The notes under the pieces were generated by a model, which saw only the letters and a list, made by a program, of their open reading frames with translations, searched no databases and was not told the DNA's origin. A DNA stretch of 49,898 nt. Source: an uncultured Bacilli bacterium (GTDB taxonomy: Bacteria > Bacillota_I > Bacilli_A > RF39 > UBA660). The translations under genes and the position numbers were made by a program. Of this stretch, positions 218-24,216 are shown piece after piece. The stretch lies in the NCBI GenBank assembly GCA_944363855.1, contig CALVVM010000035.1:1-49898 (forward strand). Reading direction: 5' to 3'. Each line of letters begins with the position of its first letter. Position 1 is the first letter of the stretch.

Positions 218-1783
218 ATGATATTAAAAAAACCATATGCATTTTTTATAAAAATGTTTAAACCTATACACTTAACATTAGCTATATTGGTTTTATATTT
301 AATTTCTTTAAGTAATGATGTACTAAAGTTTTTAAATGATTATATGTATTCTGCCGAAAGTGTAGCAAGCGAACAAGTAATTGAGTCATTAATAAATAAT
401 GCATTTTATATTATTCCTATTGTTATGATTATATTGTTTTTGATACTTTTAAGTATTATGTATAAGAAAAGCAAACCTGTAATATTTTATTTTGTAGGAA
501 TATTTTCTTTTATTGTGGTATTGGTAATAAATATATATACAATTAATTTTTTTAATCTTTTAGTTGAAAATATAGTCTCTGTTAAGGCGATTAAATTGAT
601 TCATGATTTAATTTTAATTAATGTAATATTAGAAAGTATTTGTTTAGTATTTTTATTTGTTAGAGGAGTAGGAATAGATTTTAAAAAATTTGATTTTAAC
701 TCTGATATAACTCAATTTGAAATAAGTGAAAGCGATAAAGAGGAATTTGAAGTTAATGTAAATATAGATTTTGCTGAAAGGAAAAGAAAAAGAAAAGAGA
801 ACTTTAGAAATTTTAAATATTTGTATGTTGAAAATAAGTTAATAATAAATATCTTTATTATAATTTCTTTACTTTTGTTAAGTTTTGAAATTATATATTT
901 TGTAGGAAAATATAATAAAGTTAATAAAGAAAATGTTTATTATTCAACGGATTCATTTGTTTTTAAAGTAAATTCCACAACGCTACTAAATACAGATTTT
1001 CAGGGCAATAAAATAACTGAAAATTACTTGTTAATAGTAGATGTTAATATAAAACCTAAATATTCTGATCAAATTATATATTTAAATGATTTTAGTTTGA
1101 GAATAGAAAATTTTCTATTTAAACCAGTTAAAAAATATTATGATGAGTTGATTGATTTAGGGATTTTATATCAAGAACAAATTTTAAATATAGAATATTC
1201 TGATTATCTTTTCGTATTTGAAATACCTGAAAAATATATTTCAAGTGATATGATGTTTAGATATAACAGTGAAGGTAATTTAATTAGTGTTTCATTGGAA
1301 CCTAAAACAATAAATTCAGAAGAAATTGTATTGGAAAAAAAAGTAGTATCTGAAACTTTAAAATTTCGAGAACCATTAAATGATATACAATTTAAAGTTA
1401 ATGATTTTGAAATAGAAAAATATTTTTTAATAAATTATAATTATTGCATTAAAGAAGATGATTGTATATTATCCAAGGAATATTTAAAACCTACAATAGA
1501 TGAAAACTATGATAAAGTTGTTATGAGAATTGATGTTGACTATGTAGGAAATAATGATTTGGGTGTGAAAGACTTTTATTCCCTATTATCTAATTTTGGG
1601 ATAATATCTTATAAAGTAGACGATGTATGGATTAATACATATAAATTTGAAGAAATTGTTAGTAAAAAAGTTTCATCAAAAAATAACGTATATATAGGAG
1701 TTAATTCTAATATTTTAAATGCAGATTCTATAAAATTAGTTTTTAATATTCGTGGTCAAAAGTATGAATATGGTTTAAAGTAA
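218..1783 (+). CDS. polytopic membrane protein with a large extracytoplasmic C-terminal region, function unknown
   Basis: 521-aa ORF with RBS AGGAGGG 6 nt upstream. The first ~160 aa hold several hydrophobic helices. A charged KRKRK linker and one more TM follow, then a ~290-aa beta-rich region. Confidence 0.5.
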   Translation: MILKKPYAFFIKMFKPIHLTLAILVLYLISLSNDVLKFLNDYMYSAESVASEQVIESLINNAFYIIPIVMIILFLILLSIMYKKSKPVIFYFVGIFSFIVVLVINIYTINFFNLLVENIVSVKAIKLIHDLILINVILESICLVFLFVRGVGIDFKKFDFNSDITQFEISESDKEEFEVNVNIDFAERKRKRKENFRNFKYLYVENKLIINIFIIISLLLLSFEIIYFVGKYNKVNKENVYYSTDSFVFKVNSTTLLNTDFQGNKITENYLLIVDVNIKPKYSDQIIYLNDFSLRIENFLFKPVKKYYDELIDLGILYQEQILNIEYSDYLFVFEIPEKYISSDMMFRYNSEGNLISVSLEPKTINSEEIVLEKKVVSETLKFREPLNDIQFKVNDFEIEKYFLINYNYCIKEDDCILSKEYLKPTIDENYDKVVMRIDVDYVGNNDLGVKDFYSLLSNFGIISYKVDDVWINTYKFEEIVSKKVSSKNNVYIGVNSNILNADSIKLVFNIRGQKYEYGLK

Positions 1784-1792
1784 GGTGATAAA

Positions 1793-2452
1793 ATGAAAAA
1801 GATTATATTATTTTTGTTGATTAGTATGTTTACTTTTTCTGCTTCTGCTTTAACATATGGTGGATGTAATTATTCTGATGTTTCCAGAATGAAATCGATT
1901 GTTACAAATATTAATTTATCTTATGATTATAAAATCATAAATAATGAGGCATATTTTGATGTAACTTTAAGTAATTTGACAGAAGATATATATTTTTATG
2001 ACACGATAACACAAAAAAACTATTATTATAGTGATACTAATAACGGAGAAATAATAATTTCTAATTACAAGCCTACTTCAGGTAGTTATAAATTTTATTC
2101 TGCTAAAAATGCTTGCTATGGTATATCTTTAGGAACTAAATATTATAATTTTCCTGTTTACAACAAATATTATAGTGATCCTCTTTGTAAAGATATTCCA
2201 AATTATAGTTTGTGCCAGAAATGGGGATATGTAAATTATTCACAGGATGAGTTTGAGAAAATGATTTCTGATTATAAAGATTCAAAACCTATAGAAAGTG
2301 ATAATAATATCAATGTAGAGTACAAGAAAACTTTCATTGAAAAACTTATTGATGTTTATATTAACTATTATTATTATTTTTTAGGGTTCTTAATCTTAGT
2401 ATGTAGTATTATAATAATAGTTAATAACAAAAAAAATCAATTTAAATTGTAA
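1793..2452 (+). CDS. secreted Cys-containing protein with a Sec signal peptide and a C-terminal TM anchor, function unknown
   Basis: N-terminus MKKIILFLLISMFTFSASA followed by GGCNYSD. Hydrophobic C-terminal helix YYFLGFLILVCSIIIIV. RBS GGTGA. Confidence 0.5.
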   Translation: MKKIILFLLISMFTFSASALTYGGCNYSDVSRMKSIVTNINLSYDYKIINNEAYFDVTLSNLTEDIYFYDTITQKNYYYSDTNNGEIIISNYKPTSGSYKFYSAKNACYGISLGTKYYNFPVYNKYYSDPLCKDIPNYSLCQKWGYVNYSQDEFEKMISDYKDSKPIESDNNINVEYKKTFIEKLIDVYINYYYYFLGFLILVCSIIIIVNNKKNQFKL

Positions 2453-2548: not shown

Positions 2549-2995
2549 ATGTTGAAAGAGTCTATGTGGGGATACGCTATTATAGTTTTAGGTATTCTTG
2601 CAGTAGGAATCATTTGGTTTTTTGCTAATACTACGAGAACGGATCAGCACAATTTTAATCTTCTCAAAGAAACTACAGAGGCTGCTTTGATAGATTCGCT
2701 AGATTTAGCTGCATATAGATTGGATGGAACTATAAGGATTGAAGAAGAAAAGTTTGTTGAAAATCTTATTCGTAGATTTGCTGAAAATGCCGATTTATCT
2801 AATACATATGTTATAGAAATATTTGATGTTAATACTGAACCTCCTAAAGTCAGTTTAAGGGTTTCTAGTAAAAAGGATACTACTGCAACAGGTGAAATTG
2901 TTGAATTTGATATGGTTAACAATTTAGATGCGATACTTGAGACAAAATATTATGCAGAGGAAAAAGAAGATGAGAATTCTAATGCTAAAAATTAA
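2549..2995 (+). CDS. N-terminally anchored pilin-like protein with an MKES..G leader
   Basis: 148-aa ORF. RBS AGGTGA sits only 1 nt from ATG 2549, so TTG 2552 (giving MKESMWG...) is the better-spaced start. A short polar leader is followed by the hydrophobic helix YAIIVLGILAVGIIWFF and a soluble domain. Confidence 0.45.
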   Translation: MLKESMWGYAIIVLGILAVGIIWFFANTTRTDQHNFNLLKETTEAALIDSLDLAAYRLDGTIRIEEEKFVENLIRRFAENADLSNTYVIEIFDVNTEPPKVSLRVSSKKDTTATGEIVEFDMVNNLDAILETKYYAEEKEDENSNAKN

Positions 2996-3094
2996 TATAA
3001 ACATTGTACATCAGTAAGTCGAACTTATTATACTAAACCAACTTGTTCTTGTGCTTCGTCACTAAAAAAATGTAATTGTTCAATTTATGCGAAT

Positions 3095-3292: not shown

Positions 3293-3312
3293 AAAGAAAG
3301 AGGGAATAAAAA

Positions 3313-4176
3313 ATGAATAATTTTATGATAGGTTTTAAAAGATTTATTACAAATAAAAACGTTGTTACAATTTTACTAGTAATAGTGATATTAGTAGTTC
3401 TTTATTTTGGATATAGTGGAAGTATAAAAAAACAAACAAATCCAGTTAGTATGCCAGTTGCTGCTCAAACTATTAGGCCTGGAACTAAAATCACAAGTGA
3501 ACTTTTAGTTTATAAGCAAGTTCCAGCTGGAATGATTGATGAAAGTGCGATTAGAAACACTGTTAACATATTAGATATGTATACTAATGTTAATGTAACT
3601 ATTCCAGCAGGTAGTTTGTTTTATGAAGAATGGTTAGTAGATGAATCAAATTTACCTGGGAATTGGATTGAACAATTAGATTATGAAAAAGGTGAACTTG
3701 GATATTATATGGATGTTAATGTTGAAAGTACATTAGGTAATAATGTTTTACCAAATACTTATATAGATATATATATGAGAGCAACTGATGAAAATGGAAC
3801 TTCAATGTTTGGTAAATTAATGAAAAATGTAAAAGTTTTAGTTGTACACGACGGTAGTGGTAATAATGTTTTTGATGGAGATGAAAATGTTGGTACTCCT
3901 TCAAAAATTGGATTTGGTGTAAGCCAAGATTACTATATTTTACTTAAGAAAGCTGAAGCCTTAAACGACATAGAATTGGTTTTAGCACCTAGAGGATCAA
4001 CTGTTCCAGAACAAGATTCTATAGTTGTTACTAGTCAAACATTAAGAGATTATATAGATGCTCAAACTATAACAGTGGAAGAGGATATAATAACAGGGGA
4101 AATCGAAAATCCAACTGGAGAAGAAATTGTTGAAGATAACAACGTAGTTAATGACAATCAACAAGTAGTGGAGTAA
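3313..4176 (+). CDS. CpaB/RcpC-like Flp pilus assembly protein (N-terminal TM plus SAF-like domain)
   Basis: N-terminal TM VVTILLVIVILVVLYF followed by VAAQTIRPGTKITSELLVYKQVPAGMI, which resembles a CpaB SAF segment. Acidic C-terminal tail. Lies directly upstream of the Tad ATPase. Confidence 0.55.
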   Translation: MNNFMIGFKRFITNKNVVTILLVIVILVVLYFGYSGSIKKQTNPVSMPVAAQTIRPGTKITSELLVYKQVPAGMIDESAIRNTVNILDMYTNVNVTIPAGSLFYEEWLVDESNLPGNWIEQLDYEKGELGYYMDVNVESTLGNNVLPNTYIDIYMRATDENGTSMFGKLMKNVKVLVVHDGSGNNVFDGDENVGTPSKIGFGVSQDYYILLKKAEALNDIELVLAPRGSTVPEQDSIVVTSQTLRDYIDAQTITVEEDIITGEIENPTGEEIVEDNNVVNDNQQVVE

Positions 4177-4177: not shown

Positions 4178-5299
4178 ATGAACGATAATATATTTGAGGG
4201 AATGGACTTTGGCCCCCTTAAAGAATATTTAGAGAATGATGATGTTACGGATATTTCTTATAGCAACAATGGGCAAGTTTGGTTAAAAACGTTATCTAAA
4301 GGGATATTTAGGATTGAAAATCCAGCAATAAATAATTCCTTTATGGAAAAATTAGCCTTTCAATGTTCAAATGTTATGGGAAAAAGTTTTAATGCGGCGC
4401 ATCCGTTTTTGGATAGTGAAAGTGCAGAACTTCGTATGAACTTTGTACACGATTCTATTGCAAGAAATGGTATTGCCTGTGTTATTCGTAAAACTCCTGC
4501 TAAAATACGTTTAGAAAGAAATAAAATATTAAAAGAAAAATATATAACTGAAGATATATTAGATTTTTTAATAACTTGTGTCCATGGACATTGTAATATA
4601 ATTGTCTGTGGAGAAACTGGTAGTGGTAAGACTGAATTTGTAAAATATTTAGCAGCCAATACACTTGAAAATGAAAAATTAATAACTATAGAAGATACTT
4701 TGGAATTACACTTGGATAGAATTTATCCAAATAGAGATATAGTTGCTATGAAAACAAATAATATAGCAAGCTATTCCGATGTTCTTGTCACTTGTATGAG
4801 ACAAAATCCAAAATGGATATTGTTATCAGAAGTTCGTAGTGCGGAAGCTGTAATGGCTGTTAGAAACTCAATTTCATCAGGTCACTACATATTATCTACA
4901 ATACATGCTGATAAGGCGGCGTCTATACCTAACCGTATGTATAGTTTGCTTGAAACTAATCAGGACATAGAACAATTCTTAAAATCTATTTATAGATATA
5001 TTCAATTAGGTGTGTATATTAGAGGTTATCAAGATAAAGTTTCTAAACGATTTGTAAGAGAAATTGCAGAAGTTACGGAATTTTATGTAACAAGAGATAA
5101 TGAAGCGAAATATAATACGCTTTATAAGAAAACCCCTGATGGGAAAGTTTATAGAAACAATCCTAGTGAATATTTAATTGAGTATTTGGAAGCTCAAGGT
5201 GTTGTGCTTCCAGAAGGCTTTGTTAAAGAAGAATATGAAAAAGATGGAAAGGTAGAAATAATTGAACAAACACAAAAAAATGAAATAATTTTTGAATAG
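4178..5299 (+). CDS. TadA/CpaF-type secretion ATPase (T2SSE / VirB11 superfamily)
   Basis: Walker A CGETGSGKTE, Asp/Walker B box WILLSEVRSAEA, His box LSTIHA. 373 aa. Followed by two T2SSF-like membrane protein genes. Confidence 0.8.
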   Translation: MNDNIFEGMDFGPLKEYLENDDVTDISYSNNGQVWLKTLSKGIFRIENPAINNSFMEKLAFQCSNVMGKSFNAAHPFLDSESAELRMNFVHDSIARNGIACVIRKTPAKIRLERNKILKEKYITEDILDFLITCVHGHCNIIVCGETGSGKTEFVKYLAANTLENEKLITIEDTLELHLDRIYPNRDIVAMKTNNIASYSDVLVTCMRQNPKWILLSEVRSAEAVMAVRNSISSGHYILSTIHADKAASIPNRMYSLLETNQDIEQFLKSIYRYIQLGVYIRGYQDKVSKRFVREIAEVTEFYVTRDNEAKYNTLYKKTPDGKVYRNNPSEYLIEYLEAQGVVLPEGFVKEEYEKDGKVEIIEQTQKNEIIFE

Positions 5300-7802: not shown

Positions 7803-7813
7803 GAAGTGATAAA

Positions 7814-9743: not shown

Positions 9744-9753
9744 AGGTGAAAAT

Positions 9754-10158: not shown

Positions 10159-10160
10159 TT

Positions 10161-17277: not shown

Positions 17278-19218
17278 ATGCCTGATGAAAATTTAAATCA
17301 AAATGCTGAACAAAAAATGTTATCAGATGCAGAAGTGCAAAGAAGGCGTAATGTTGCCAATAACGCAAATAATGTTAGATTAGCTGCGGATGTTGCAGCT
17401 AATACGGCAAACCCTTATGCTAAAGCAGCGGGTTTAGCTGTGAAGACTGCTGATAAATTAAGTGATGGAAAAGCATCAGAAAAACTTGGTAAAACTATGG
17501 ATAATTTTATGAAAACACAAGGTTTGAAGGGTAAAATGATGCAAGCTGCCCTAAATAAAATGAGCGAAAGTGGAACAAGTGATAGGATTGCAGCAGCAGC
17601 AAACAAAAAAAATGGTGCTCCATCATCACCTAAAAAAGGAAATTTAACAGAAAATAATGTTGAAGATAGTTCGTCTAAATTGAAAGAGACAGAAGATCAA
17701 ACAGATGGTGGATCAGCAAGTTTTAGTTTTTCTTCTAAAGTTGTAAAATATGGAATAATCGGTTGTGCAGCTGCTTTTTTGCTACTAATACCTATTTGTT
17801 TGTTTACATCTGCATCTAGTATTTATATTAAATCTATAGGTTTAGGTAACGCTGATTCTGTTAGTTTTGAAGATGCAGAAAGTAAAATAAATAAAAAGCA
17901 AGAAGATACCGAAGAAGTAGAAGAAGGTGTAACTGAAGATGATTTAAGCTTTGATGTTTTTATTGAAGATGAACATACTTCTTTTAGAACACAAAAATTA
18001 GAAAAATCAAATTTAATTAAAATTGCTCAAACAACATATTTAAGAAGAAAATATACAGAAGCAGATTTATCTAATTTAGAGGATTTTTATCCTACTGTGG
18101 TTAGTTTAAGTAAGAATTATGATGAAAATATGGTGTATGATTTCTTCTTTAAGATGTATAATTTGTATACCACTTATAGAGATACATACAATGTTCATTT
18201 AGATTTACCTTTATTAATGTCAACATTGATGGTGCAATCTGATGATATGAATGTTATATTTAGTTCAAATTTAAGTAAAGAAGATAGAGCGAAAACAGCT
18301 AGAAAAAAACCAATAAAGGAATTTGACTATTATTACGATTGGTCAGGACATATTTTGGAATCAAACGTTAGTACAAATGATATGGAAATATTAGCACAAC
18401 GTATGGTTTCTTATCAAGTTAAAGAAACTTGTACGGATACTTCAGGAAAAGTAACACAAGAAAAACTTTTAAGAGATAATGAAACTAAAAATCAAGCACT
18501 ATTTTGTATTGAGGGTGAAACTTATAAAAGAGAAGAACTTGGAATGCAAATAGATAAGGAAAAATATAAAGAATTTTTAAAAGAATTTTTAGAAAAAAAA
18601 TATTATGTACTCGATGAAACTGGTTTATCTAGTAATCCAGTTGACGGATTGGAAATTTCTACGGGCACTTCTAGTATTGCGAAAGGAAATTCTTTTGCAG
18701 ATGTAATGATTAACCTTGCCAACAATGAGTATAAATTGACAAACGGTGAAAAATATGGAATGAAGTATATTAATGCTTATGGGAATAAGTCCTTTGGAAA
18801 AGGAACTCCTTGGTGTGCAATGTTTGCTTGGTATATAACAGCAAATACAAAATATAATGGACAATCTTTATATCCAGATATAATACCGTTTAAAACAGCT
18901 GCTGTAAGAACTTATATTAAAAAGTTTAATACTAGCGAAAAAGAGAATATAAATTTTTATTATAACGATAGCTGTAAAAATTTAAAGGGTAAAAATGGTA
19001 ATTTAAATTATATACCTAAAAAAGGAGATTTTATATTTTATGATTGGCAAGCTAAATATTATGATATCTCATCAGATACACAGGATCATGTTGCAATCGT
19101 AGAAAAATATGAAAATGGTACAATATATACTATTGAAGGAAATTATAGTAATACGGTATCAAAAGCAAAATACTCTATAAATGATTGCCGTGTAATTGGT
19201 TTTGGATCATGGTATTAG
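17278..19218 (+). CDS. membrane-anchored cell-wall hydrolase with a C-terminal CHAP (NlpC/P60-like) domain (PrgK/TcpG/VirB1 analogue)
   Basis: RBS AGGAGG. About 160-aa Ala/Lys-rich N-terminus, TM GIIGCAAAFLLLIPICLF, then a C-terminal GTPWCAMFAWYI...DHVAIVE...TIEGN Cys-His CHAP signature. Confidence 0.7.
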   Translation: MPDENLNQNAEQKMLSDAEVQRRRNVANNANNVRLAADVAANTANPYAKAAGLAVKTADKLSDGKASEKLGKTMDNFMKTQGLKGKMMQAALNKMSESGTSDRIAAAANKKNGAPSSPKKGNLTENNVEDSSSKLKETEDQTDGGSASFSFSSKVVKYGIIGCAAAFLLLIPICLFTSASSIYIKSIGLGNADSVSFEDAESKINKKQEDTEEVEEGVTEDDLSFDVFIEDEHTSFRTQKLEKSNLIKIAQTTYLRRKYTEADLSNLEDFYPTVVSLSKNYDENMVYDFFFKMYNLYTTYRDTYNVHLDLPLLMSTLMVQSDDMNVIFSSNLSKEDRAKTARKKPIKEFDYYYDWSGHILESNVSTNDMEILAQRMVSYQVKETCTDTSGKVTQEKLLRDNETKNQALFCIEGETYKREELGMQIDKEKYKEFLKEFLEKKYYVLDETGLSSNPVDGLEISTGTSSIAKGNSFADVMINLANNEYKLTNGEKYGMKYINAYGNKSFGKGTPWCAMFAWYITANTKYNGQSLYPDIIPFKTAAVRTYIKKFNTSEKENINFYYNDSCKNLKGKNGNLNYIPKKGDFIFYDWQAKYYDISSDTQDHVAIVEKYENGTIYTIEGNYSNTVSKAKYSINDCRVIGFGSWY

Positions 19219-19227
19219 GAGGAAAAA

Positions 19228-19890
19228 ATGAAAAAAATATTATTTATAATTCCTTTAATACTTCTTATAAGTGGATGTTCATCCACTTATAATTTAGAAA
19301 TAGGGAATGATAGTTTTAAAGAAGATATAGATATTAAAATTGATAAGACTGAAATTCCTAGTGAATCTTTGTACGAAGAAATCGAAACAGATGATCAAAT
19401 AACTCCATTTTTAGAAGAAAATCACCATGCATTTTTTTCTAAAAAAGATAAATATTATAATAAAAAAGTTATTTACTATGATGATTATATTGATGTAAAT
19501 TTGTCGTACGATTATTCTTCAAGTCAATTTAAAGATGCAAACTCTTTAAATTCTTGTTTTGAAAATTTTATTTTTGATGATGGAGAAAGTTATTATATAC
19601 ATGTTTATGGTAATTTTTATTGTTTATATGCTGATGAATTCATTGTAAATATAAAGACAAACAATAAAGTGATAAGAAGTAATGCAACAAGTGTGGAAGG
19701 AAATATATATACTTGGATAATAAATAATGATAATAAATATGATGTAGACATTGAATTAGAGGTTTCAAAGGGATTTCCTTGGAAAAATATAATTAAATAT
19801 ACAATTATTCTTGGTTCAATTGTAATTTTTGTGTTTGGTGCTATTTATTATGTTTATAATAAAAATAAAAGAACTAATTCTATTGATTGA
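19228..19890 (+). CDS. lipoprotein with a C-terminal TM helix, function unknown
   Basis: Lipobox LLISGCSS and C-terminal helix YTIILGSIVIFVFGAIYYV. RBS AGGAGG. Confidence 0.55.
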   Translation: MKKILFIIPLILLISGCSSTYNLEIGNDSFKEDIDIKIDKTEIPSESLYEEIETDDQITPFLEENHHAFFSKKDKYYNKKVIYYDDYIDVNLSYDYSSSQFKDANSLNSCFENFIFDDGESYYIHVYGNFYCLYADEFIVNIKTNNKVIRSNATSVEGNIYTWIINNDNKYDVDIELEVSKGFPWKNIIKYTIILGSIVIFVFGAIYYVYNKNKRTNSID

Positions 19891-19901
19891 GGTGAAGTAA
19901 G

Positions 19902-21146
19902 TTGAAAAAAATATATACTATAATGTTTACTTTAATTTCTTTGTTTTACCTTAAATTAGAATTTGTTAATGCATATGATTTTATTGACTCCAATAACGAA
20001 AATTTGATTAGGGAACAAATAAATCAAATATATGATGCTAAAGAACAATATGAAGATTTAGTTGGTAGTTATGAAGAAATAACAATAACTACTTATGACG
20101 CTACTCCTAATTCATATTGGTGGCCAATTGGTAGTGCAGAAACAAATACTGTAGATGGTATTATATTCGCAAATGGAGATCCAGAAGTTGTTTATGTTTC
20201 TTCAAAGTTTGGATATAGAAAAGACCCTCTTGGTAGAGGTAGAAGATTTCACTCTGGAGTTGATATTGCGGGTGGAACAGAAGGAAATGTTAATATTATA
20301 GCAGCTAAAGATGGTGTGGTTGTTTATCCTACTGCAGGAGTATCTAATAACTGTCTTTCTAGTAATTCATTGTCTTCTTGTGGTGGAGGATATGGAAATT
20401 ATGTTATAATTCAACATGGTGATGGAAATTATACGTTGTATGCTCATTTATATCAAAATTCAATAACAGTAAAAGCTGGAGACAGTGTTAAACAGGGACA
20501 AGTTATTGGTAAGATGGGTAGTAGTGGTAATTCAACTGGAAACCACTTACATTTTGAAATAAGAGAAGGCTCAAATAGTGGCTCAGCAACAGTAGATCCT
20601 TTAAATTATATTTCAGCAGAAAATCCACGTGCTGTTTTTACAGGTGATGAATTTTTAAAGTGGCTAAATAGTTGGGAAGGGCATTCTCCAATAGATGGTG
20701 AATATTATGTTGTTGAAAATATCGGAGATGGTGTAAGAACTGTTGGTGGTGGTGTCACATTAGAGCACAATGCTGATAGTTTTGCAGCTTATGGAATTGA
20801 TATTAAAGATTATCCTGTAGGTAGTAAAATTGCAATTTCTATTGTAGATAGTATTCAATTAGAAGAAATTGCTTCTAAAAGAAGTACAATAGAAAATACT
20901 TTGTCGAATAATTCAATAACCCTTCAAGAAAACGAAATTCAAGCTTTAGTTTCTCAAAAATATAATACAGGAAACATCAAAGGCTTTGTAGATGCTTATA
21001 ATACATATGGTAATACACAAGAGCTTTATGATAACTGGTTTTTTAGAGCTATAATGAAGGGTACTAAGTTTGAAAAGGGATTAACTAGAAGACGTAATGC
21101 AGAATGGGCTTTGTTTCATACAGCTAAATATGTATATAATGGTTAG
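19902..21146 (+). CDS. secreted bifunctional peptidoglycan hydrolase (M23/LytM peptidase plus lysozyme-like C-domain)
   Basis: M23 motifs HSGVDIAG and GNHLHFEIR. The C-terminal WEGHSP...GDGVRTVGGGVTLE segment is lysozyme (GH24)-like. TTG start with RBS GGTGA. Confidence 0.7.
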   Translation: MKKIYTIMFTLISLFYLKLEFVNAYDFIDSNNENLIREQINQIYDAKEQYEDLVGSYEEITITTYDATPNSYWWPIGSAETNTVDGIIFANGDPEVVYVSSKFGYRKDPLGRGRRFHSGVDIAGGTEGNVNIIAAKDGVVVYPTAGVSNNCLSSNSLSSCGGGYGNYVIIQHGDGNYTLYAHLYQNSITVKAGDSVKQGQVIGKMGSSGNSTGNHLHFEIREGSNSGSATVDPLNYISAENPRAVFTGDEFLKWLNSWEGHSPIDGEYYVVENIGDGVRTVGGGVTLEHNADSFAAYGIDIKDYPVGSKIAISIVDSIQLEEIASKRSTIENTLSNNSITLQENEIQALVSQKYNTGNIKGFVDAYNTYGNTQELYDNWFFRAIMKGTKFEKGLTRRRNAEWALFHTAKYVYNG

Positions 21147-21154
21147 GTGATAAG

Positions 21155-21673
21155 ATGAAAGATAAATCTAAGTTAGTTGCAATTATTTTAGTTATTATTA
21201 CAATTTTAGTTGTTGTTTTAACAAATTTTTTTAATAAAGATGATAAACAATTAGAGAATAAAATTGAAATAGTAACAAACTATAGTAATTTTTATACTGT
21301 TGATTCTTGTTTATATAGGACTATAACCTATATAGCATCTAAAGATAGTCAAAGTCTATTGTCTATATTAAGTAGTAATTATAAAAAAGAAAATAATATA
21401 GATTCCAGTAATATTTTGAGTTTGTTTAATTCTATAGAAGAAGATTCGGTTTTTATATCCAAAAAAATGTATTATGAAAAAATAAATAATAATATAACCA
21501 AATATTATGTTTATGGATTAGTAGAAAAAAATCAAATCATAGATGATGCGTTGACAGTAGATAATCAATACACTAATCAGTATTTTATTGTTTACTTGGA
21601 TACAATTAATAAAACTTTTGCAGTGGAGCCTTATGATGGTAGTATATTTATAGGTGGTGAAAATAATGAATAA
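21155..21673 (+). CDS. small bitopic protein (N-terminal TM plus alpha/beta domain), possible VirB8/TcpC-like component
   Basis: TM LVAIILVIITILVVVL followed by a ~140-aa domain. Position between the hydrolases and the T4CP. No diagnostic motif. Confidence 0.3.
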   Translation: MKDKSKLVAIILVIITILVVVLTNFFNKDDKQLENKIEIVTNYSNFYTVDSCLYRTITYIASKDSQSLLSILSSNYKKENNIDSSNILSLFNSIEEDSVFISKKMYYEKINNNITKYYVYGLVEKNQIIDDALTVDNQYTNQYFIVYLDTINKTFAVEPYDGSIFIGGENNE

Positions 21674-22139
21674 AAATCCTATAAAGTATGGTATAATAAT
21701 TGCTATTATTATCTTAGTTTTTGTCGGCGCATATTTCATAATAAGTAAGCTTACAGAAGATAATTCATTAGGCTATGAAGAGTTTTTAAAAGATTATGAG
21801 GTAAATGAATATATTGCTTCTTATGTATCAGATGAAGATATGGCGAAGATTTATTTAAACGATTACATACATAATATGTTTTATGATGTAGAAAAAGCTT
21901 ATAATTTATTAGATGAAGAATATAAAACAAAGAAATTTGGTAGTTTAGATAATTTTAAATCCTATGTAGATGGTTTAGAATATTCAACTTATGTTTTATC
22001 TAGATATTATAAAAAAGACACAGATGGATATATAATTTTTGGAGTATATGATAAAAATGGAAACTTCTTTGCTTTTAAAACAAAAGGAGTATTACAATAT
22101 ACAGTATTCTTAGATGATTACACAGTAGAGATATGGTGA
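21666..22139 (+). CDS. small bitopic protein (N-terminal TM plus alpha/beta domain), possible VirB8/TcpC-like component
   Basis: Start at ATG 21666 (MNKNPIKYG), in an ATGAATAA overlap with the previous ORF. TM GIIIAIIILVFVGAYFII followed by a ~130-aa domain. Confidence 0.3.
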   Translation: MNKNPIKYGIIIAIIILVFVGAYFIISKLTEDNSLGYEEFLKDYEVNEYIASYVSDEDMAKIYLNDYIHNMFYDVEKAYNLLDEEYKTKKFGSLDNFKSYVDGLEYSTYVLSRYYKKDTDGYIIFGVYDKNGNFFAFKTKGVLQYTVFLDDYTVEIW

Positions 22140-22143
22140 TAAA

Positions 22144-24216
22144 ATGAGATTAAGATTTAGAGCTGATGCTAAAGATGTATTAATATTTGTTATATTTGCT
22201 ATTGTATGGCTATTTGTTGTAGCCTTAGCTGTTGCAAATGTTTCTGCTTTCTTAAATGGCGAATCTTTTACTATTAATTTATTTTTAGGTTTTATTGGTG
22301 GTAATTTAGCGGCTACTTTAGTTTTCTTTTTTGCTGGACTTATTGCTGCTTTTGCAGGAGTTAAATCAGTATTCATAGAAAAAGAAGATTCTTCTGGAAT
22401 AGGATTTTCAGTTGGGCAAAAAAAGGAAAAAAACTATTCAAGATGGGCTAAAGATAAAGAAATTGAGAATGGTTTGGATGTTAAAGCAGTTGATCCTTTA
22501 GCGCCTAAATCAGATGCTGCGGGTATACCTCTAAAAATGACACCTAAAAAAGTTTGGGTAGATAATGGTGGATATCATAATATTGTTATAGGTTCTACTG
22601 GAGCAGGTAAAACTCAAACTACAGTTTTACCAATGGTAAATTTACTTGCTAAACATGATGAATCTATGATTATAACAGACCCTAAAGGTGAAATATATGA
22701 AAATACTTCTAACTATTTAAAAAGTTTAGGATATAATATAGTACTTTTAAACTTCCGTGATCCACAACAGGGAAATGCTTGGAATCCTATGTATTTACCT
22801 TATTCATTGTATAAAAATGGTAATATAGATAAATCAGTTGAGTTATTAGAAGACTTAGCTGCTAATATCTTAAAAGATCCAAGCGCTAAAGGACAAGATC
22901 CTTTCTGGGAAAATACATCTGCAGACTATTTTGCAGGTCTTGCATGTGCTTTATTTGAAGACGCTAAGGAAGAAGAAATAAATTTAAATAGTATAAACTT
23001 AATGACTACAGTAGGTGAAGAAAAGTTAGCTAATACTACTTATATTAAAGATTATTTTAGTTATAAAGATCCTGCTAGTACAGCTTATACTAAAGCGTCA
23101 TCTACTTTAATGGCACCAAGCGAAACAAAGGGAAGTATTTTATCAGTTTTTAAACAGAGAGTTCAATTATTTGCTTCACGTGCTAACTTATCAGAGATGC
23201 TAGCAAACAATGACTTTGATATGCGTGATATTGGTAGGAAAAAGACAGCTGTATTTATAGTAATACAAGATGAAAAAACTACATATCATACATTAGTTAC
23301 AATTTTCTTGAAACAATGCTATGAAACATTAATTTCAGTAGCACAAGAATCAGGTGGAAAATTACCACATAGAACAAACTTTATATTAGATGAGTTTGCG
23401 AATATGCCACCTTTAAAAGATGTTACAACAATGGTTACTGCAGCTCGTTCAAGAAACATTAGATTTACATTTATTATCCAAAACTTTGCTCAACTTTACG
23501 AAGTATATGGCAAAGAAAACGGAGAAACAATTAAAGGTAACTGTGGTAATATAGTTTACTTGATAAGTACAGAGTTATCCGCACTTGAAGAAATAAGTAA
23601 GATGTGTGGTGAAGTTAAATCTAAAGAGAAGGAAAAAACATCATCAACACCTCTTGTTACAGTAAGTGACTTACAAAGACTTAGTCAATGGGAAACAATA
23701 ATTTTAAGACTTAGAACAATGCCTTTTAAAACTAAATTAACACCTAATTTCCAAATGAATTGGGGACATAGTTTTCCTAAAGCAGGGTATCCGGAGAGAC
23801 AAAAAAATCCTGTTTCAACTTTTGATTTAAAAACATTCGTAAATAAAAAAAGAGAAGAAAAAATAAACAGTATGTTAAATGGTGATTCTGCTCCTAGCGG
23901 TGGAAATGTTCCATCAAATCCATTTGGTGGTGGTGCTCCTTTTAATCCATTTATGCCACCAAGAGAATCCAATGAATCTAGTGGCGGTGGATTTAACGTA
24001 GATGATTTAGTTAAAAGAATAGATGCTAAAATAGCTGAGCTTGAAGAAGAGGAAAGACAAGAAAAAGCTAAATTAGAGCAAGAAAACAAAACTAAATTAG
24101 AATCATCTCAGAAAATATCAGAAATGACAAAAGCTGAAGTAACTACTGAAGAAATTAAATCTAAGAATGGAATTACTGATGATCAATTCTTTGATGATTT
24201 CTTCTTTGATGAATAA
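22144..24216 (+). CDS. virD4: VirD4/TraG-family type IV coupling protein (T4CP)
   Basis: Two N-terminal TM helices, Walker A GSTGAGKTQT, Walker B FILDEFANMP, and NIRFTFIIQNFAQL. Low-complexity Gly/Pro plus coiled-coil C-terminus ending in DDQFFDDFFFDE. Confidence 0.8.
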   Translation: MRLRFRADAKDVLIFVIFAIVWLFVVALAVANVSAFLNGESFTINLFLGFIGGNLAATLVFFFAGLIAAFAGVKSVFIEKEDSSGIGFSVGQKKEKNYSRWAKDKEIENGLDVKAVDPLAPKSDAAGIPLKMTPKKVWVDNGGYHNIVIGSTGAGKTQTTVLPMVNLLAKHDESMIITDPKGEIYENTSNYLKSLGYNIVLLNFRDPQQGNAWNPMYLPYSLYKNGNIDKSVELLEDLAANILKDPSAKGQDPFWENTSADYFAGLACALFEDAKEEEINLNSINLMTTVGEEKLANTTYIKDYFSYKDPASTAYTKASSTLMAPSETKGSILSVFKQRVQLFASRANLSEMLANNDFDMRDIGRKKTAVFIVIQDEKTTYHTLVTIFLKQCYETLISVAQESGGKLPHRTNFILDEFANMPPLKDVTTMVTAARSRNIRFTFIIQNFAQLYEVYGKENGETIKGNCGNIVYLISTELSALEEISKMCGEVKSKEKEKTSSTPLVTVSDLQRLSQWETIILRLRTMPFKTKLTPNFQMNWGHSFPKAGYPERQKNPVSTFDLKTFVNKKREEKINSMLNGDSAPSGGNVPSNPFGGGAPFNPFMPPRESNESSGGGFNVDDLVKRIDAKIAELEEEERQEKAKLEQENKTKLESSQKISEMTKAEVTTEEIKSKNGITDDQFFDDFFFDE

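What the first reader, a model, noticed from the sequence alone, without database searches (positions are those of the whole stretch)
218..24216. Relaxase-less hybrid locus: Tad-type pilus machinery fused to a Gram-positive T4SS, embedded next to core genes
Seen in sequence: 27 co-oriented ORFs with tiny gaps or overlapping stop/start codons. Module A (3313-9313) has a CpaB-like SAF protein, a TadA/CpaF ATPase (GETGSGKT, LLSEVRSAEA, STIHA), two T2SSF-like membrane proteins, a small pilin-like and two pseudopilin-like proteins, and a TadZ-like protein. Module B (12231-24216) has a TcpH/VirB6-like protein, a PrgI/VirB3-like protein, VirB4, a CHAP hydrolase, an M23+lysozyme hydrolase and a VirD4 T4CP. 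Four VirB2-like paralogues lie between the modules. I found no relaxase, replication gene, partition gene or recombinase in the cluster or on its right flank. The right flank runs straight into rhodanese, rmuC, rnr and smpB. Established knowledge: to my knowledge, monoderm (MPF-FATA-type) conjugation systems have no VirB11-class ATPase and no described pilus, and Tad systems are not known to operate with VirB4/VirD4. Inference: this may be a domesticated or novel filament-forming T4SS, for example one that builds a pilus for DNA or protein transfer, or for DNA import as in the archaeal Ced/Ted systems. Its retained T4CP argues for substrate export.
Basis: partly seen in the sequence, partly recalled or inferred. 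Interest (0 to 1): 0.88.

Follow-up and report, generated by a model that had tools for sequence, protein, structure and literature searches.

The report
Chromosomal relaxase-less conjugation machine with pilus cassette
An uncultured group of gut bacteria (RF39-type Bacilli) keeps, as a fixed and strongly conserved chromosomal locus, the cell-to-cell transfer machine normally found on Gram-positive conjugative plasmids, including a pilus-building cassette, but without the DNA-nicking enzyme; the "hybrid" design itself is not new because the same combination sits on many Firmicutes plasmids.

Summary
Positions 218-24216 carry 26 credible co-oriented genes (plus one doubtful ORF). They form a Tad-like cassette (DUF5411, SAF/CpaB-like, CpaF/VirB11-class ATPase, two platform-like membrane proteins, three prepilin-like proteins, a TadZ-fold protein), four VirB2-like pilins, and a Gram-positive T4SS (VirB6, VirB3, split VirB4, hydrolases, CD1115-family T4CP). 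No relaxase, integrase or att repeat was found.

The premise that monoderm T4SSs lack a VirB11-class ATPase is wrong. pLS20, pAW63, pHT73, pZB18, Listeria pLIS25, a Priestia plasmid and Exiguobacterium pEYLC1.2 all carry it, several with the whole Tad-like cassette and a relaxase.

What is special is the setting. The locus lies between scpAB and rhodanese/rmuC and is collinear in at least 48 species of uncultured gut Bacilli (RF39). Core-gene dN/dS is 0.04-0.09 and dS matches the flanking housekeeping genes.

It is best read as a domesticated conjugation-type machine. Its substrate (DNA mobilised in trans, or proteins) is unknown.

Novelty: new variant of a known kind. Interest: moderate to high.

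The parts
218..1783 (+). g01: 521-aa polytopic membrane protein (about 6 N-terminal TM segments plus a large ectodomain). Function unknown. First gene of the block.
   Evidence: No Pfam or NCBIfam hit. 312 homologues of constant length, about 521 aa. Always precedes g02 and DUF5411 in relatives. TM scan.
1793..2452 (+). g02: 219-aa secreted, C-terminally anchored protein rich in Cys and Tyr. Function unknown.
   Evidence: No family hit. Conserved at 36-60% identity in several loci. Signal segment and C-terminal TM.
2549..2995 (+). g03: DUF5411 bitopic protein, the first gene of the Tad-like cassette.
   Evidence: Pfam DUF5411 2e-47. The orthologue HMM hits the gene heading the same cassette on the Priestia plasmid, Listeria pLIS25 and pEYLC1.2. 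pHT73 carries a DUF5411 gene in the same place.
3313..4176 (+). g05: SAF / RcpC-CpaB-like bitopic protein.
   Evidence: TIGR03177 pilus_cpaB 9.3e-8 and Pfam RcpC 0.005, both below cutoff. HMM hits the PGAP 'SAF domain' protein at 3.6e-41 and the 'RcpC/CpaB family' protein at 6.4e-37 on plasmids.
4178..5299 (+). g06: secretion ATPase of the CpaF/TadA-VirB11-FlaI clade.
   Evidence: Pfam T2SSE 2.8e-26. NCBIfam VirB11 1.5e-33, TrbB 1e-26, TadA-type 4e-26, all below cutoffs. PDB: FlaI 9e-18, CpaF 1e-16, VirB11 2e-15. About 30% identical to plasmid 'CpaF/VirB11 family' proteins. 63-93% identical across species. dN/dS 0.05-0.07.
5310..6212 (+). g07: platform-like polytopic protein (distant T2SSF, TadB-like).
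   Evidence: No direct Pfam or PDB hit. HMM 1.6e-14 to a PGAP 'T2SS F family' protein, which itself scores Pfam T2SSF 3.4e-5. tblastn 6e-5 to a Parageobacillus T2SS-F family gene. hhalign E 2.2e-4 (prob 45%) to a T2SSF domain in the correct region. Natural fusions with g08-like halves.
6212..7003 (+). g08: second platform-like polytopic protein (TadC-like partner of g07).
   Evidence: Same TM topology as g07. HMM 3.4e-18, 2.4e-7 and 1.9e-12 to the gene following the g07 homologue or the ATPase on plasmids. Hits on B. cereus-group plasmids. Fused to g07-like halves in P0462, P0492, P0494 and P0506. The single-sequence AF2 model was unusable, pLDDT 57.
7071..7313 (+). g09: 80-aa prepilin-like protein, the candidate major subunit of the Tad-like filament.
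   Evidence: The N-terminus MKEAAG|EANMTVITIVLIAIVL is almost invariant across species and the C-terminal part is variable and Cys-rich. dN/dS 0.43-0.60. A promoter-like site scoring 11/12 with TG lies at 7006-7035.
7329..8302 (+). g10 (7329-7802) and g11 (7814-8302): two minor prepilin-like proteins (DUF4320-like).
   Evidence: Shared leader M[KR]E[AS]xG followed by a hydrophobic helix. The g10 HMM hits plasmid DUF4320 proteins at 1.3e-4 and 1.8e-3.
8318..9313 (+). g12: TadZ-fold cytoplasmic protein. N-terminal receiver-like alpha/beta domain plus a C-terminal ParA/MinD-like domain with a degenerate Walker A.
   Evidence: No sequence-family hit. AF2 with an 80-sequence MSA gave pLDDT 90.9. 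Foldseek: ParA 3cwq 1.4e-4, MinD, FlhG, BcsQ, and the two-domain match 3fkq at 3.4e-4. dN/dS 0.06-0.09.
9324..10571 (+). g13, g14, g15: three tandem VirB2/TrbC-like T4SS pilin paralogues.
   Evidence: Signal peptide plus two-TM hairpin with the conserved loop KG.TAQKEDE[IM]KKGQ. Pfam T4SS_pilin 1.5e-3 for g14. Repeat family D1-D4.
10580..11698 (+). g16: 372-aa bitopic surface protein, function unknown.
   Evidence: No family hit. N-terminal TM. Present in most close species and lost in distant ones.
11754..12131 (+). g17: fourth VirB2-like pilin, the most conserved paralogue. It has its own promoter-like site and is followed by the only terminator-like hairpin (12141-12170).
   Evidence: Pfam T4SS_pilin 4.9e-4. 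Alignment. Promoter-like site at 11701-11729 and terminator-like site at 12141-12170.
12231..14615 (+). g18: VirB6/TrbL-like polytopic channel protein with a long, variable coiled C-terminal region.
   Evidence: Precomputed Pfam TrbL_4. NCBIfam Mycoplasma-ICE Mbov_0396 4.9e-12 and MMCAP2_0566 7e-9. More than 1311 homologues. N-terminal 400 aa highly conserved.
14636..14956 (+). g19: VirB3/PrgI-like two-TM protein (DUF5592-like).
   Evidence: Maps to positions 2-94 of VirB4_plasma. HMM hits plasmid DUF5592 proteins and their positional equivalents at 2.4e-5, 4.6e-10 and 3.8e-7.
14934..15473 (+). g20: VirB4 N-terminal domain encoded as a separate protein.
   Evidence: NCBIfam VirB4_plasma positions 107-276, 9e-13. 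Precomputed TraC-like. HMM hits the ~200-270-aa gene preceding VirB4 on plasmids, best 2.2e-16.
15473..17257 (+). g21: VirB4 ATPase.
   Evidence: NCBIfam VirB4_plasma 3.9e-103 and CD1110 3.9e-54. Pfam AAA_10 and P-loop_TraG. 73-96% identical across species. dN/dS 0.04-0.06.
17278..21146 (+). g22 (CHAP hydrolase with membrane anchor), g23 (lipoprotein) and g24 (M23 peptidase plus lysozyme): the cell-wall-breaching module.
   Evidence: Pfam CHAP 8e-10, LPAM, Peptidase_M23 1.5e-26, Phage_lysozyme 2e-4. The module is variable: close relatives replace it with one 808-812-aa M23 protein.
21155..22139 (+). g25 and g26: two small bitopic proteins (candidate VirB8-like, untested).
   Evidence: No family hit. 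N-terminal TM. Fast-evolving, dN/dS 0.28-0.62. Absent or unrecognisable in distant species.
22144..24216 (+). g27: type IV coupling protein (VirD4-like, CD1115 family).
   Evidence: NCBIfam conju_CD1115 8.6e-88, 295 bits against a cutoff of 250. Pfam T4SS-DNA_transf 1e-56. 58-91% identical across species. dN/dS 0.07-0.09.
26799..28022 (+). g32: 407-aa protein with a Cys-rich ectodomain fused to a C-terminal VirB2-like hairpin. A displaced component of the system, lying outside the reported coordinates.
   Evidence: Pfam T4SS_pilin 4.6e-7, above the gathering score. Its homologues sit between g17 and g18 inside the cluster in distant species.
34848..35855 (+). Second dispersed fusion of an ectodomain with a VirB2-like hairpin (335 aa).
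   Evidence: Pfam T4SS_pilin 7.3e-5, below the gathering score. Shares the hairpin and the KEDEIKKAQ loop with the cluster paralogues.

Best explanation
What it is: a chromosomally fixed ('domesticated') member of the class of Firmicutes conjugation-type type IV secretion systems that carry a CpaF/VirB11-class ATPase inside a Tad-like type-IV-filament cassette. The same composite sits on relaxase-bearing plasmids (Exiguobacterium pEYLC1.2, a Priestia plasmid, pHT73, Listeria pLIS25, and, by gene order, pLS20/pBS72 and pZB18). Here it has lost, or never had, the relaxase/oriT, replication and integration functions. It is inherited vertically between scpAB and rhodanese/rmuC in uncultured RF39-type gut Bacilli.

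How it most likely works (inferred from the parts):
- An upstream surface adhesin makes cell contact. This gene is variable and is seen only in relatives.
- The CHAP and M23/lysozyme hydrolases open the peptidoglycan.
- VirB6, VirB3 and the split VirB4 form and energise the membrane channel.
- VirB2-like pilins, some fused to Cys-rich ectodomains, form the extracellular conduit or tip.
- In the Tad-like cassette, the g06 hexameric ATPase drives the g07+g08 platform to polymerise the g09 prepilin-like subunit, primed by g10 and g11.
- The TadZ-fold protein g12 positions this machine and the SAF/CpaB-like g05 scaffolds it.
- The resulting short filament helps cross the wall and/or stabilises mating pairs.
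- The CD1115-family T4CP recruits the substrate for export. The substrate is most probably DNA processed by a relaxase encoded elsewhere, or belonging to mobilisable elements.

Shown: parts list, homologies, synteny, selection. Inferred: filament formation, cooperation of the two modules, and the substrate.
For: - Parts and families.
- Same composite on plasmids, with significant profile matches gene by gene: Priestia plasmid g03 1.6e-7, g05 3.6e-41, g06 3.8e-57, g07 1.6e-14, g08 3.4e-18; pEYLC1.2 g27 1.6e-70, g21 3.2e-85, g20 2.2e-16, g19 3.8e-7, g05 6.4e-37, g06 3.9e-35, g08 1.9e-12.
- A VirB11 homologue in pLS20 and pAW63 is documented (PMC8557374; PMC9673590).
- Chromosomal fixation: identical gene order and the same flanks in relatives whose VirB6-like protein (the query) is 74% to below 30% identical, in 48 species-representative genomes. 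The left flank is scpA/scpB in three species.
- No att-like repeats and no relaxase in 1.1 Mb of related loci.
- Selection and age: dN/dS 0.04-0.09 for the ATPases, platform, g12 and T4CP, against 0.063 for rmuC. Cluster dS is 0.5-1.0 and flank dS is 0.82-0.83.
- The two modules co-evolve: Spearman 0.81 between g06 and g21 pairwise identities over 29 loci.
- TadZ-like fold of g12.
- g07-g08 fusions and the T2SSF links.
- The T4CP is above the curated cutoff of a conjugative family.
Against: - No relaxase or oriT was found, so DNA export is not demonstrated.
- Whole genomes of these MAGs could not be scanned for a relaxase in trans.
- No prepilin peptidase lies in the window or the related loci, and the prepilin-like leaders lack the Flp G/XXXXEY motif. 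Processing and filament formation are therefore inferred only.
- g07 and g08 have only remote T2SSF support.
- g12 has a degenerate Walker A and no plasmid homologue.
- No pilus has ever been shown for a Gram-positive conjugation system (PMC11730352).
- The distribution within RF39 was not measured. The 48 species are a lower bound from two peptide patterns, and absence in other species was not tested.
Confidence: 0.6

Rival explanations
1. Same machine, different job. It would be a core cell-cell interaction organelle that exports proteins or effectors, or mediates attachment, for an obligately dependent (epibiotic, parasitic or syntrophic) or antagonistic lifestyle. This would be comparable to the chromosomal T4SSs of Saccharibacteria or the bacteria-killing T4SSs of Xanthomonadales. 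No DNA transfer would be involved.
For: - No relaxase in the locus, its flanks or 1.1 Mb of related loci.
- Order-wide retention at a fixed site under strong purifying selection is easier to explain by a direct fitness benefit than by gene transfer.
- Surface-exposed parts evolve fast (g09, g16, g18, g22, g25, g26; dN/dS 0.3-0.9).
- Pilin paralogues fused to Cys-rich ectodomains are dispersed in the genome, as expected for a recognition or adhesion repertoire.
- RF39 genomes are small and the organisms uncultured (own knowledge; taxon link).
Against: - The T4CP is a full member of a family known from conjugative elements.
- No candidate effector, toxin or immunity genes were seen in or beside the locus.
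- Every closest relative with a known setting is a DNA-transfer system.
Confidence: 0.22
2. Two independent systems that merely sit side by side: a Tad-type adhesion pilus and a separate T4SS, with no functional coupling.
For: The cassette is modular. It is combined with different T4SS types (pLS20-type, Tcp-type on pHT73) and in different positions relative to the T4SS genes. A terminator-like site and promoter-like sites separate the pilin block from the VirB6 block.
Against: - The two modules are adjacent and collinear in all 57 chromosomal loci.
- The cassette recurs specifically inside the transfer regions of unrelated plasmids.
- Pairwise divergences of g06 and g21 are tightly correlated, at 0.81.
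- The VirB2-like pilins lie between the two modules, and the T4CP closes the block.
Confidence: 0.1
3. A DNA-uptake (competence-like) machine, analogous to Helicobacter ComB or the archaeal Ced/Ted systems, as the first reader suggested as one option.
For: Relaxase-less, chromosomal and conserved. VirB2-like pilins plus VirB4 and VirB6 are the core of Ced/Ted (own knowledge). There is a weak CedD match of the VirB4 C-terminus, 3e-10. rmuC is a conserved neighbour.
Against: A highly conserved conjugative-type T4CP is retained. ComB and Ced lack a T4CP (own knowledge). No ComEC/ComEA-type genes lie in the window. The closest relatives are donor-side export systems.
Confidence: 0.05
4. An ordinary or decaying integrative conjugative element whose relaxase and integrase lie just outside the window.
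For: The window starts only 217 nt upstream of g01. A tyrosine integrase and an IS110 transposase exist at 46.5-49.7 kb.
Against: - In three relatives the upstream region is one variable surface protein followed by scpA/scpB and other housekeeping genes, with no relaxase or integrase.
- The right flank is conserved housekeeping.
- The integrase is separated from the cluster by ~22 kb of core genes.
- There are no bracketing repeats.
- The locus has the same position and order in 48 species, with dS equal to the flanks and dN/dS below 0.1.
Confidence: 0.03

Closest known systems
Transfer region of Exiguobacterium acetylicum plasmid pEYLC1.2 (NZ_CP082335.1), with similar regions on a Priestia koreensis plasmid and B. 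thuringiensis pHT73
   Same: Essentially the same parts list. It has a CD1115-family T4CP, pilin, TrbL/VirB6, a small VirB3-like protein, a separate VirB4 N-domain, VirB4 and cell-wall hydrolases. It also has DUF5411-like, RcpC/CpaB, ParA-type AAA, T2SS/T4P/T4SS ATPase, two ~300-aa membrane proteins, an ~85-aa prepilin-like protein and DUF4320. Profile matches to the window's genes are significant.
   Different: The plasmids carry a relaxase (MobP3, or a replication-relaxation protein) and plasmid maintenance genes. Module order differs: the T4SS comes before the cassette on pEYLC1.2. Their ParA-like protein lies between the SAF gene and the ATPase and lacks the receiver-like domain, whereas g12 follows the prepilins and has no detectable sequence similarity to it. 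Identities are only about 25-32%.
pLS20-family (pBS72) and enterococcal pZB18/pHTbeta-type conjugation operons
   Same: The layout is an adhesin at the start, then a 'putative VirB11' (pLS20 gene 37). This is followed by two unknown TM proteins of 268 and 243 aa and small N-terminal-TM proteins (genes 38-41). Then come TrbC/VirB2, VirD4 (CD1115), a pLS20_p028 VirB6-like protein, DUF5592, VirB4 and a hydrolase. The ATPase, T4CP and VirB4 match at 1e-46 to 1e-68.
   Different: They are plasmid-borne with a MobP2 relaxase and a quorum-sensing-controlled regulation module. My g07, g08 and g05 profiles do not detect their counterparts, so only gene order and topology agree. No DUF5411 or SAF genes are annotated there.
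Mycoplasma integrative conjugative elements (MICE; Mbov_0396/Mbov_0397 families)
   Same: These are the best-scoring curated families for the VirB6-like protein and for VirB3+VirB4. MICE also have no recognised canonical relaxase (own knowledge). The host lineage is phylogenetically close (Bacilli/Mollicutes).
   Different: Scores are below the family cutoffs. VirB3-VirB4 is one 894-position protein in MICE but three ORFs here. MICE are mobile through a DDE recombinase. No Tad-like cassette, VirB2-like pilins or wall hydrolases are expected in wall-less hosts (own knowledge, not tested).
Tad/Flp (type IVc) pilus systems, e.g. Caulobacter Cpa and Aggregatibacter Tad
   Same: The cassette logic matches: a CpaB-like SAF protein, a TadA/CpaF-clade ATPase, two single-domain platform proteins, a short major prepilin-like subunit plus two minor ones, and a TadZ-fold localisation protein.
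   Different: No member reaches a Tad family cutoff. The ATPase is as close to VirB11 and FlaI as to CpaF. There is no G/XXXXEY Flp motif and no TadV peptidase in the locus. The cassette is embedded in a T4SS.
IncI1 R64 thin pilus and PAPI-1/ICE type IVb pili of Gram-negative conjugative elements
   Same: These are a precedent for a type-IV-filament machine encoded within a conjugative T4SS region and needed for mating-pair stabilisation, especially in liquid (own knowledge).
   Different: They are diderm systems with type IVb rather than Tad-like components, and they are not homologous at the cassette level. No test was done here.
Chromosomal T4SS of Saccharibacteria (Patescibacteria)
   Same: A Gram-positive-type T4SS (VirB4, VirB6, VirD4, T4SS_pilin-domain proteins) kept as a chromosomal, conserved feature of reduced-genome, host-dependent bacteria (own knowledge).
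   Different: A different phylum, with a type IV pilus encoded separately rather than a Tad-like cassette in the same block. Homology was not examined here.

Membership tests
Gram-positive conjugation-type T4SS with VirB11/CpaF-class ATPase (pLS20 / pAW63 / pEYLC1.2 class) | VirB4-family ATPase | tested here: met
   g21: VirB4_plasma 3.9e-103, CD1110 3.9e-54, Pfam AAA_10/P-loop_TraG. HMM 3.2e-85 to pEYLC1.2 VirB4.
Gram-positive conjugation-type T4SS with VirB11/CpaF-class ATPase (pLS20 / pAW63 / pEYLC1.2 class) | Type IV coupling protein of the CD1115 family | tested here: met
   g27: NCBIfam conju_CD1115 at 295 bits against a cutoff of 250.
Gram-positive conjugation-type T4SS with VirB11/CpaF-class ATPase (pLS20 / pAW63 / pEYLC1.2 class) | VirB6-like polytopic protein, VirB3-like (DUF5592) protein and a cell-wall hydrolase | tested here: met
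   g18: TrbL_4 and Mbov_0396. g19: HMM to DUF5592 proteins. CHAP, M23 and lysozyme.
Gram-positive conjugation-type T4SS with VirB11/CpaF-class ATPase (pLS20 / pAW63 / pEYLC1.2 class) | Third ATPase of the T2SSE superfamily next to membrane proteins of about 260-300 aa | tested here: met
   g06: Pfam T2SSE above the gathering score. About 30% identical to plasmid CpaF/VirB11 proteins. g07 and g08 are homologous to the plasmid neighbours.
Gram-positive conjugation-type T4SS with VirB11/CpaF-class ATPase (pLS20 / pAW63 / pEYLC1.2 class) | Relaxase and oriT in the same element (self-transmissibility) | tested here: not met
   No MOB family hit in any of the 27 ORFs or the right flank. tblastn with MobP2, MobP3 and replication-relaxation proteins finds nothing in 1.1 Mb. 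oriT was not testable.
Tad/Flp pilus (type IVc filament) system | TadA/CpaF ATPase | tested here: inconclusive
   Member of the CpaF-VirB11-FlaI clade. Best NCBIfam hit is VirB11 at 116 bits (cutoff 250); the TadA-type family scores 92 bits (cutoff 373). In the PDB, FlaI, CpaF and VirB11 score about equally.
Tad/Flp pilus (type IVc filament) system | TadB and TadC platform proteins with a T2SSF domain | tested here: inconclusive
   No direct T2SSF hit in 62 orthologues. Indirect support: plasmid homologues annotated or scoring as T2SSF, hhalign E 2e-4 at prob 45%, 2 of 24 distant relatives hit T2SSF, and natural g07-g08 fusions.
Tad/Flp pilus (type IVc filament) system | Flp prepilin with the G/XXXXEY processing motif | tested here: not met
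   g09 has MKEAAG|EANMTV... with no EY. g10 and g11 have M[KR]E[AS]xG leaders. They are prepilin-like in layout only.
Tad/Flp pilus (type IVc filament) system | Dedicated prepilin peptidase (TadV/CpaA, peptidase A24) | tested here: not met
   No A24 hit in Pfam or NCBIfam for any cluster protein. No GxGD[..]K motif or homologue in the window or 57 loci. One could be encoded elsewhere in the genome, which was not testable.
Tad/Flp pilus (type IVc filament) system | TadZ/CpaE: receiver-like domain plus an atypical ParA/MinD domain | tested here: met
   Met at fold level only. AF2 pLDDT 90.9. Foldseek finds ParA, MinD and FlhG, and a two-domain match to 3fkq at E 3.4e-4. 3fkq is TadZ of E. rectale to my knowledge (Xu et al. 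2012); I could not verify this with the paper tools. Walker A is degenerate.
Tad/Flp pilus (type IVc filament) system | RcpC/CpaB SAF-domain protein | tested here: met
   Below the curated cutoffs directly (TIGR03177 9e-8). The HMM scores 6.4e-37 to a PGAP 'RcpC/CpaB family pilus assembly protein'.
Integrative conjugative element (ICE) | Integrase or recombinase at one end, with att direct repeats | tested here: not met
   None in the cluster or immediate flanks. No bracketing repeats. The only integrase is about 22 kb away, beyond core genes.
Integrative conjugative element (ICE) | Accessory, patchy distribution and a history discordant with the flanking genes | tested here: not met
   Same site and order in 48 species. 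Cluster dS is about equal to flank dS. Absence in other RF39 species was not tested.
Mycoplasma ICE (MICE) | Mbov_0397-type fused VirB3-VirB4 and the Mbov_0396 TM protein above family cutoffs; DDE recombinase (CDS22) | tested here: not met
   346 bits against a cutoff of 590, split over three ORFs. 45.9 bits against a cutoff of 70. No transposase in the cluster.
Archaeal Ced/Ted or Helicobacter ComB DNA-import systems | VirB2/VirB4/VirB6-type import apparatus lacking a T4CP | tested here: not met
   A conserved T4CP is present. There is only a weak local CedD match, 3e-10.

The most novel reading that the evidence does not exclude
RF39-type gut Bacilli are uncultured and have reduced genomes. 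They may use this vertically inherited, relaxase-less conjugation machine and its Tad-like filament as a core organelle for obligate cell-to-cell interaction. That could be relaxase-independent or chromosomal DNA exchange among kin, as in mycoplasma chromosomal transfer, or nutrient or effector exchange with partner cells, as proposed for Saccharibacteria. As a corollary, the 'VirB11 plus unknown membrane proteins' of pLS20, pAW63 and pHT73-type plasmids would be a complete type-IV-filament assembly cassette. Gram-positive conjugation systems would then build a so far unseen filament.
Probability: 0.2. Interest if true: 0.85.

Novelty: new variant of a known kind. Interest (0 to 1): 0.55.

Why it matters
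1. It corrects a common assumption. A VirB11/CpaF-class ATPase is present in a whole class of Gram-positive T4SSs. There it is part of a full Tad-like cassette: SAF/CpaB, a ParA/TadZ-like protein, a split platform and prepilin-like subunits. The pLS20 literature lists the corresponding genes as 'unknown'.

2. [quoted passage not shown] This cassette, together with the VirB2-like paralogues, gives concrete candidate filament genes. These can be tested in tractable plasmid relatives such as pLS20 in B. subtilis or pHT73 in B. thuringiensis.

3. A conjugation-type machine has been kept for a long evolutionary time at one chromosomal site, without a relaxase, across an uncultured and medically relevant gut order (RF39). 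That points to a core cell-cell interaction function and may help explain, or help achieve, their cultivation.

Tried and rejected
- **Own contig:** looking up the window's contig through g01 failed; no exact match is on record.
- **tRNA, Rfam, repeats:** no tRNA, no Rfam hit and no att-like repeats, so there are no integration landmarks.
- **Sequence profiles of g07, g08 and g12:** nothing against the PDB. Nothing useful against Pfam across 62 orthologues.
- **hhalign:** g07 against g08 using RF39-only alignments was not significant because Neff was about 2. Comparisons to single T2SSF sequences were weak. A PDB search with the more diverse profile A7 gave noise only.
- **Structure prediction:** The single-sequence model of g08 had pLDDT 57 and was discarded without a fold search.
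- **Fusion query:** a g07+g12 fusion query returned only g12 homologues.
- **g12 against plasmids:** no hit.
- **Prepilin peptidase:** the 198-aa pEYLC1.2 protein I suspected has no NCBIfam hit and no homologue or motif in the chromosomal loci. The idea is left open.
- **g01 as a peptidase:** I considered the N-terminal membrane domain of g01 as a novel prepilin peptidase and rejected it, because it has no GxGD-type motif.
- **Promoter-like sites:** they are not enriched over shuffles, so the operon substructure is only suggestive.
- **Flank correlation:** the correlation with rmuC used too few loci (4) to be informative.
- **Literature tools:** many searches timed out. The two RF39 searches that ran found nothing relevant. 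The identity of 3FKQ as TadZ could not be verified.

Full report
**Observation**

The window is about 27% G+C with a strong positive GC skew, and almost all genes are on the + strand. Between 218 and 24216 there are 27 co-oriented ORFs with tiny gaps or overlaps. One of them (3095-3292) has no counterpart in any related locus and is probably not a gene.

- DUF5411 (2549-2995, 2e-47).
- A SAF/CpaB-like protein (pilus_cpaB 9e-8, below cutoff).
- A T2SSE-superfamily ATPase containing the quoted motifs.
- VirB2-type T4SS_pilin paralogues.
- A TrbL/VirB6-like protein.
- A VirB3-like protein, and a VirB4 split into an N-domain ORF and an ATPase ORF. The three ORFs map consecutively onto positions 2-94, 107-276 and 295-891 of one Mycoplasma-ICE VirB4 model.
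- CHAP and M23+lysozyme hydrolases.
- A T4CP that passes the curated cutoff of the conjugative CD1115 family (295 bits against 250).

The four VirB2-like paralogues share a signal peptide, a two-TM hairpin and the loop KG.TAQKEDE[IM]KKGQ.

No relaxase, replication, partition or recombinase family is hit in the cluster or in the next ~22 kb. That stretch is housekeeping: rhodanese, rmuC, DUF2238, rnr, smpB, yabP, divIC, gerQ, queA, miaA and recD2.

**The three orphan proteins**

The 'two T2SSF-like' proteins (g07, g08) and the 'TadZ-like' protein (g12) have no direct Pfam, NCBIfam or PDB sequence match. This holds even when 62 orthologues are scanned one by one.

For g12, an AlphaFold2 model from an 80-sequence alignment is confident (pLDDT 90.9). 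It shows two alpha/beta domains.
- The C-terminal domain matches ParA, MinD, FlhG and BcsQ.
- The whole protein aligns to the two-domain structure 3fkq (E 3.4e-4). To my knowledge 3fkq is TadZ of Eubacterium rectale. I could not verify this because the paper tools timed out.
- The Walker A motif is degenerate.

For g07 and g08 the evidence is indirect but consistent.
- They share a TM1 / hairpin / ~130-aa soluble domain / C-terminal TM topology.
- Profiles built from their orthologues hit the two genes that follow the ATPase on plasmids (1e-14 to 3e-18). One of these is annotated 'type II secretion system F family' and scores Pfam T2SSF 3.4e-5.
- g07 hits a Parageobacillus T2SS-F family gene directly (6e-5).
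- A diverse g07-family profile aligns to a valid T2SSF domain in the right region (E 2e-4, prob 45%).
- Four unrelated metagenomic proteins of 488-573 aa are natural fusions of a g07-like half and a g08-like half. This is the PilC/GspF two-domain logic.

The three small proteins g09-g11 share a short leader M[KR]E[AS]xG followed by a hydrophobic helix.
- The g09 N-terminus is almost invariant while its Cys-rich C-terminus varies.
- g10 resembles the DUF4320 proteins of plasmid cassettes.
- They lack the Flp G/XXXXEY motif, and no prepilin peptidase is in the locus.

**Where it occurs**

The VirB6-like protein has more than 1311 homologues, all from uncultured 'Bacilli / Firmicutes / Tenericutes / Mollicutes bacterium' gut MAGs.

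A scan of species-representative genomes found the locus in 48 distinct species from rabbit, ruminants, mouse and human.

One homologue is named Candidatus Coprovivens. This is GTDB genus UBA11963, order RF39, family CAG-1000 (PMC8035907).

In all 57 fetched loci the gene order is the same. The right flank is rhodanese-rmuC-DUF2238. In three species the left flank is one variable large surface protein (with a SpaA domain in one species) and then divergent scpA/scpB.

There are no bracketing repeats and no tRNA. No relaxase homologue occurs in 1.1 Mb of these loci, although a T4CP control gives 73 hits.

**Selection and age**

Identity to the window across species is:
- 63-93% for the ATPase.
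- 73-96% for VirB4.
- 58-91% for the T4CP.
- 43-92% for g12.

The VirB6-like protein falls to 28%.

Against two relatives, dN/dS is 0.04-0.09 for g06, g07, g08, g12, g20, g21 and g27. The neighbouring rmuC is 0.063. Cluster dS (0.5-1.0) equals flank dS (0.82-0.83).

Surface components evolve faster (g09, g10, g16, g18, g22, g25, g26; 0.27-0.86).

Pairwise divergences of the Tad-like ATPase and VirB4 correlate at 0.81.

So the block is as old as its chromosomal neighbourhood, is functional, and its two modules evolve together. It is not an ICE or a decaying remnant.

**Comparison with what is known**

tblastn of the ATPase finds 'CpaF/VirB11 family' genes on many conjugative or mobilisable plasmids of Bacillus, Enterococcus, Listeria, Virgibacillus, Priestia and Paraclostridium. 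Their contexts are as follows.
- **pBS72 (pLS20 family) and pZB18:** adhesin, CpaF/VirB11, unknown membrane proteins, TrbC/VirB2, VirD4 (CD1115), pLS20_p028 (VirB6-like), DUF5592, VirB4, hydrolase and a MobP2 relaxase.
- **Listeria pLIS25:** the same, with two ~265-aa proteins after the ATPase.
- **Priestia plasmid:** DUF5411, SAF, AAA_31 protein, CpaF/VirB11, T2SSF, a partner protein and DUF4320, next to a T4CP and a replication-relaxation protein.
- **pHT73:** the same cassette beside a Tcp-type system.
- **Mycoplasmatota plasmid:** a VirB4 block followed by SAF, AAA, CpaF and T2SSF.
- **Exiguobacterium pEYLC1.2:** the whole parts list plus a MobP3 relaxase.

My orthologue HMMs match these plasmid genes one by one.

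[quoted passage not shown] It lists genes 38-41 as unknown TM proteins (PMC8557374). pAW63 also has a VirB11 homologue (PMC9673590). Neither text mentions Tad, CpaF or pilins.

The held library has nothing linking RF39 with a T4SS.

**Most likely mechanism**

Shown: a complete mating-pair-formation gene set plus a T4CP, homologous to plasmid transfer regions, fixed in the chromosome and under strong constraint.

Inferred:
- The hydrolases open the wall.
- VirB6, VirB3 and split VirB4 form the channel.
- VirB2-like pilins, including ectodomain fusions, build the external conduit or tip. One fusion (26799-28022) lies inside the cluster in distant species.
- The ATPase and the g07/g08 platform polymerise g09, primed by g10 and g11. 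g12 positions the machine and g05 scaffolds it, giving a short filament for wall crossing or mating-pair stabilisation.
- The T4CP feeds substrate for export.

I put the identity of the system at about 0.85. I put DNA as the substrate, through a relaxase in trans or mobilisable elements, at about 0.4. Protein or effector export, or adhesion for an obligately interactive lifestyle, is the main rival at about 0.2-0.25. DNA import and an ordinary ICE are unlikely.

**Verdict**

The 'hybrid' is a known, if under-described, architecture of Firmicutes conjugation systems.

Two things are new. One is its relaxase-less, vertically inherited, order-wide chromosomal form in RF39-type bacteria, with a lineage-specific TadZ-fold protein and expanded pilin repertoire. 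The other, as a by-product, is the recognition that the plasmid 'VirB11' belongs to a full Tad-like cassette.

Novelty: new variant of a known kind. Interest: 0.55.

Noticed in passing
window 26799-28022 and 34848-35855: Two proteins outside the cluster fuse a large Cys-rich ectodomain to a C-terminal VirB2-like (T4SS_pilin) hairpin. Homologues of the first lie inside the cluster, between g17 and g18, in distant species. They could be tip or adhesin variants of the conjugative pilin.
   Followed up: partly
P0462, P0492, P0494, P0506: Natural single-chain fusions of a g07-like half and a g08-like half (488-573 aa) exist in other metagenomic lineages. Weak reciprocal cross-hits suggest g07 and g08 are ancient paralogues.
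   Followed up: partly
L065 (pHT73), L060 (Priestia plasmid), L064 (pEYLC1.2), L058 (pBS72); pLS20 genes 36-41: A recurrent cassette runs DUF5411, SAF/CpaB, ParA-like AAA, CpaF/VirB11 ATPase, two ~300-aa membrane proteins, an ~85-aa prepilin-like protein and DUF4320. It accompanies different T4SS types on Firmicutes plasmids. The pLS20 paper lists the equivalent genes as unknown.
   Followed up: partly
L001 15038-17464; L003 15028-17466, compared with window 17278-21146: The cell-wall hydrolase module is swapped between close relatives. One 808-812-aa M23 protein there replaces the CHAP protein, lipoprotein and M23-lysozyme protein of the window.
   Followed up: partly
L053 4000-5823; L055 7135-9891; L056 7823-9934 (upstream of the g01 homologues): A large, highly variable surface protein (607-918 aa, with a SpaA domain in L055) lies between scpA and g01. 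This is the same position as the adhesin genes that open plasmid conjugation operons. In the window this gene would lie just upstream of base 1.
   Followed up: partly
window 24274-24561: A 95-aa rhodanese gene directly follows the T4CP even in the most divergent species, with no terminator between them. It may belong to the operon or simply be a conserved neighbour.
   Followed up: partly
window 32096-32512 and 33844-34218 (minus strand): Sporulation-associated genes (YabP family, spore coat GerQ) occur in a genome of an RF39-related, reduced-genome lineage.
   Followed up: no
window 46570-47685 and 48403-49656 (minus strand): A tyrosine integrase and an IS110-family transposase sit at the right end of the window, after recD2. 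This may be the edge of an unrelated mobile element. They are separated from the T4SS locus by ~22 kb of core genes.
   Followed up: no
window 2996-3312: There is a 317-nt gap between DUF5411 and the SAF gene, holding only a non-conserved 65-codon ORF. Relatives have about 15-20 nt here. It could be an insertion or a regulatory region.
   Followed up: no
window 104-133: A perfect 12-bp inverted repeat (AATTGATATGTT ... AACATATCAATT) lies in the 217-nt region upstream of g01. It could be an operator or the terminator of the upstream gene.
   Followed up: no
L022, L042, L052: Three MAGs labelled Bacteroidaceae or Muribaculaceae carry this low-GC Bacilli locus. These contigs are probably mis-binned.
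   Followed up: no
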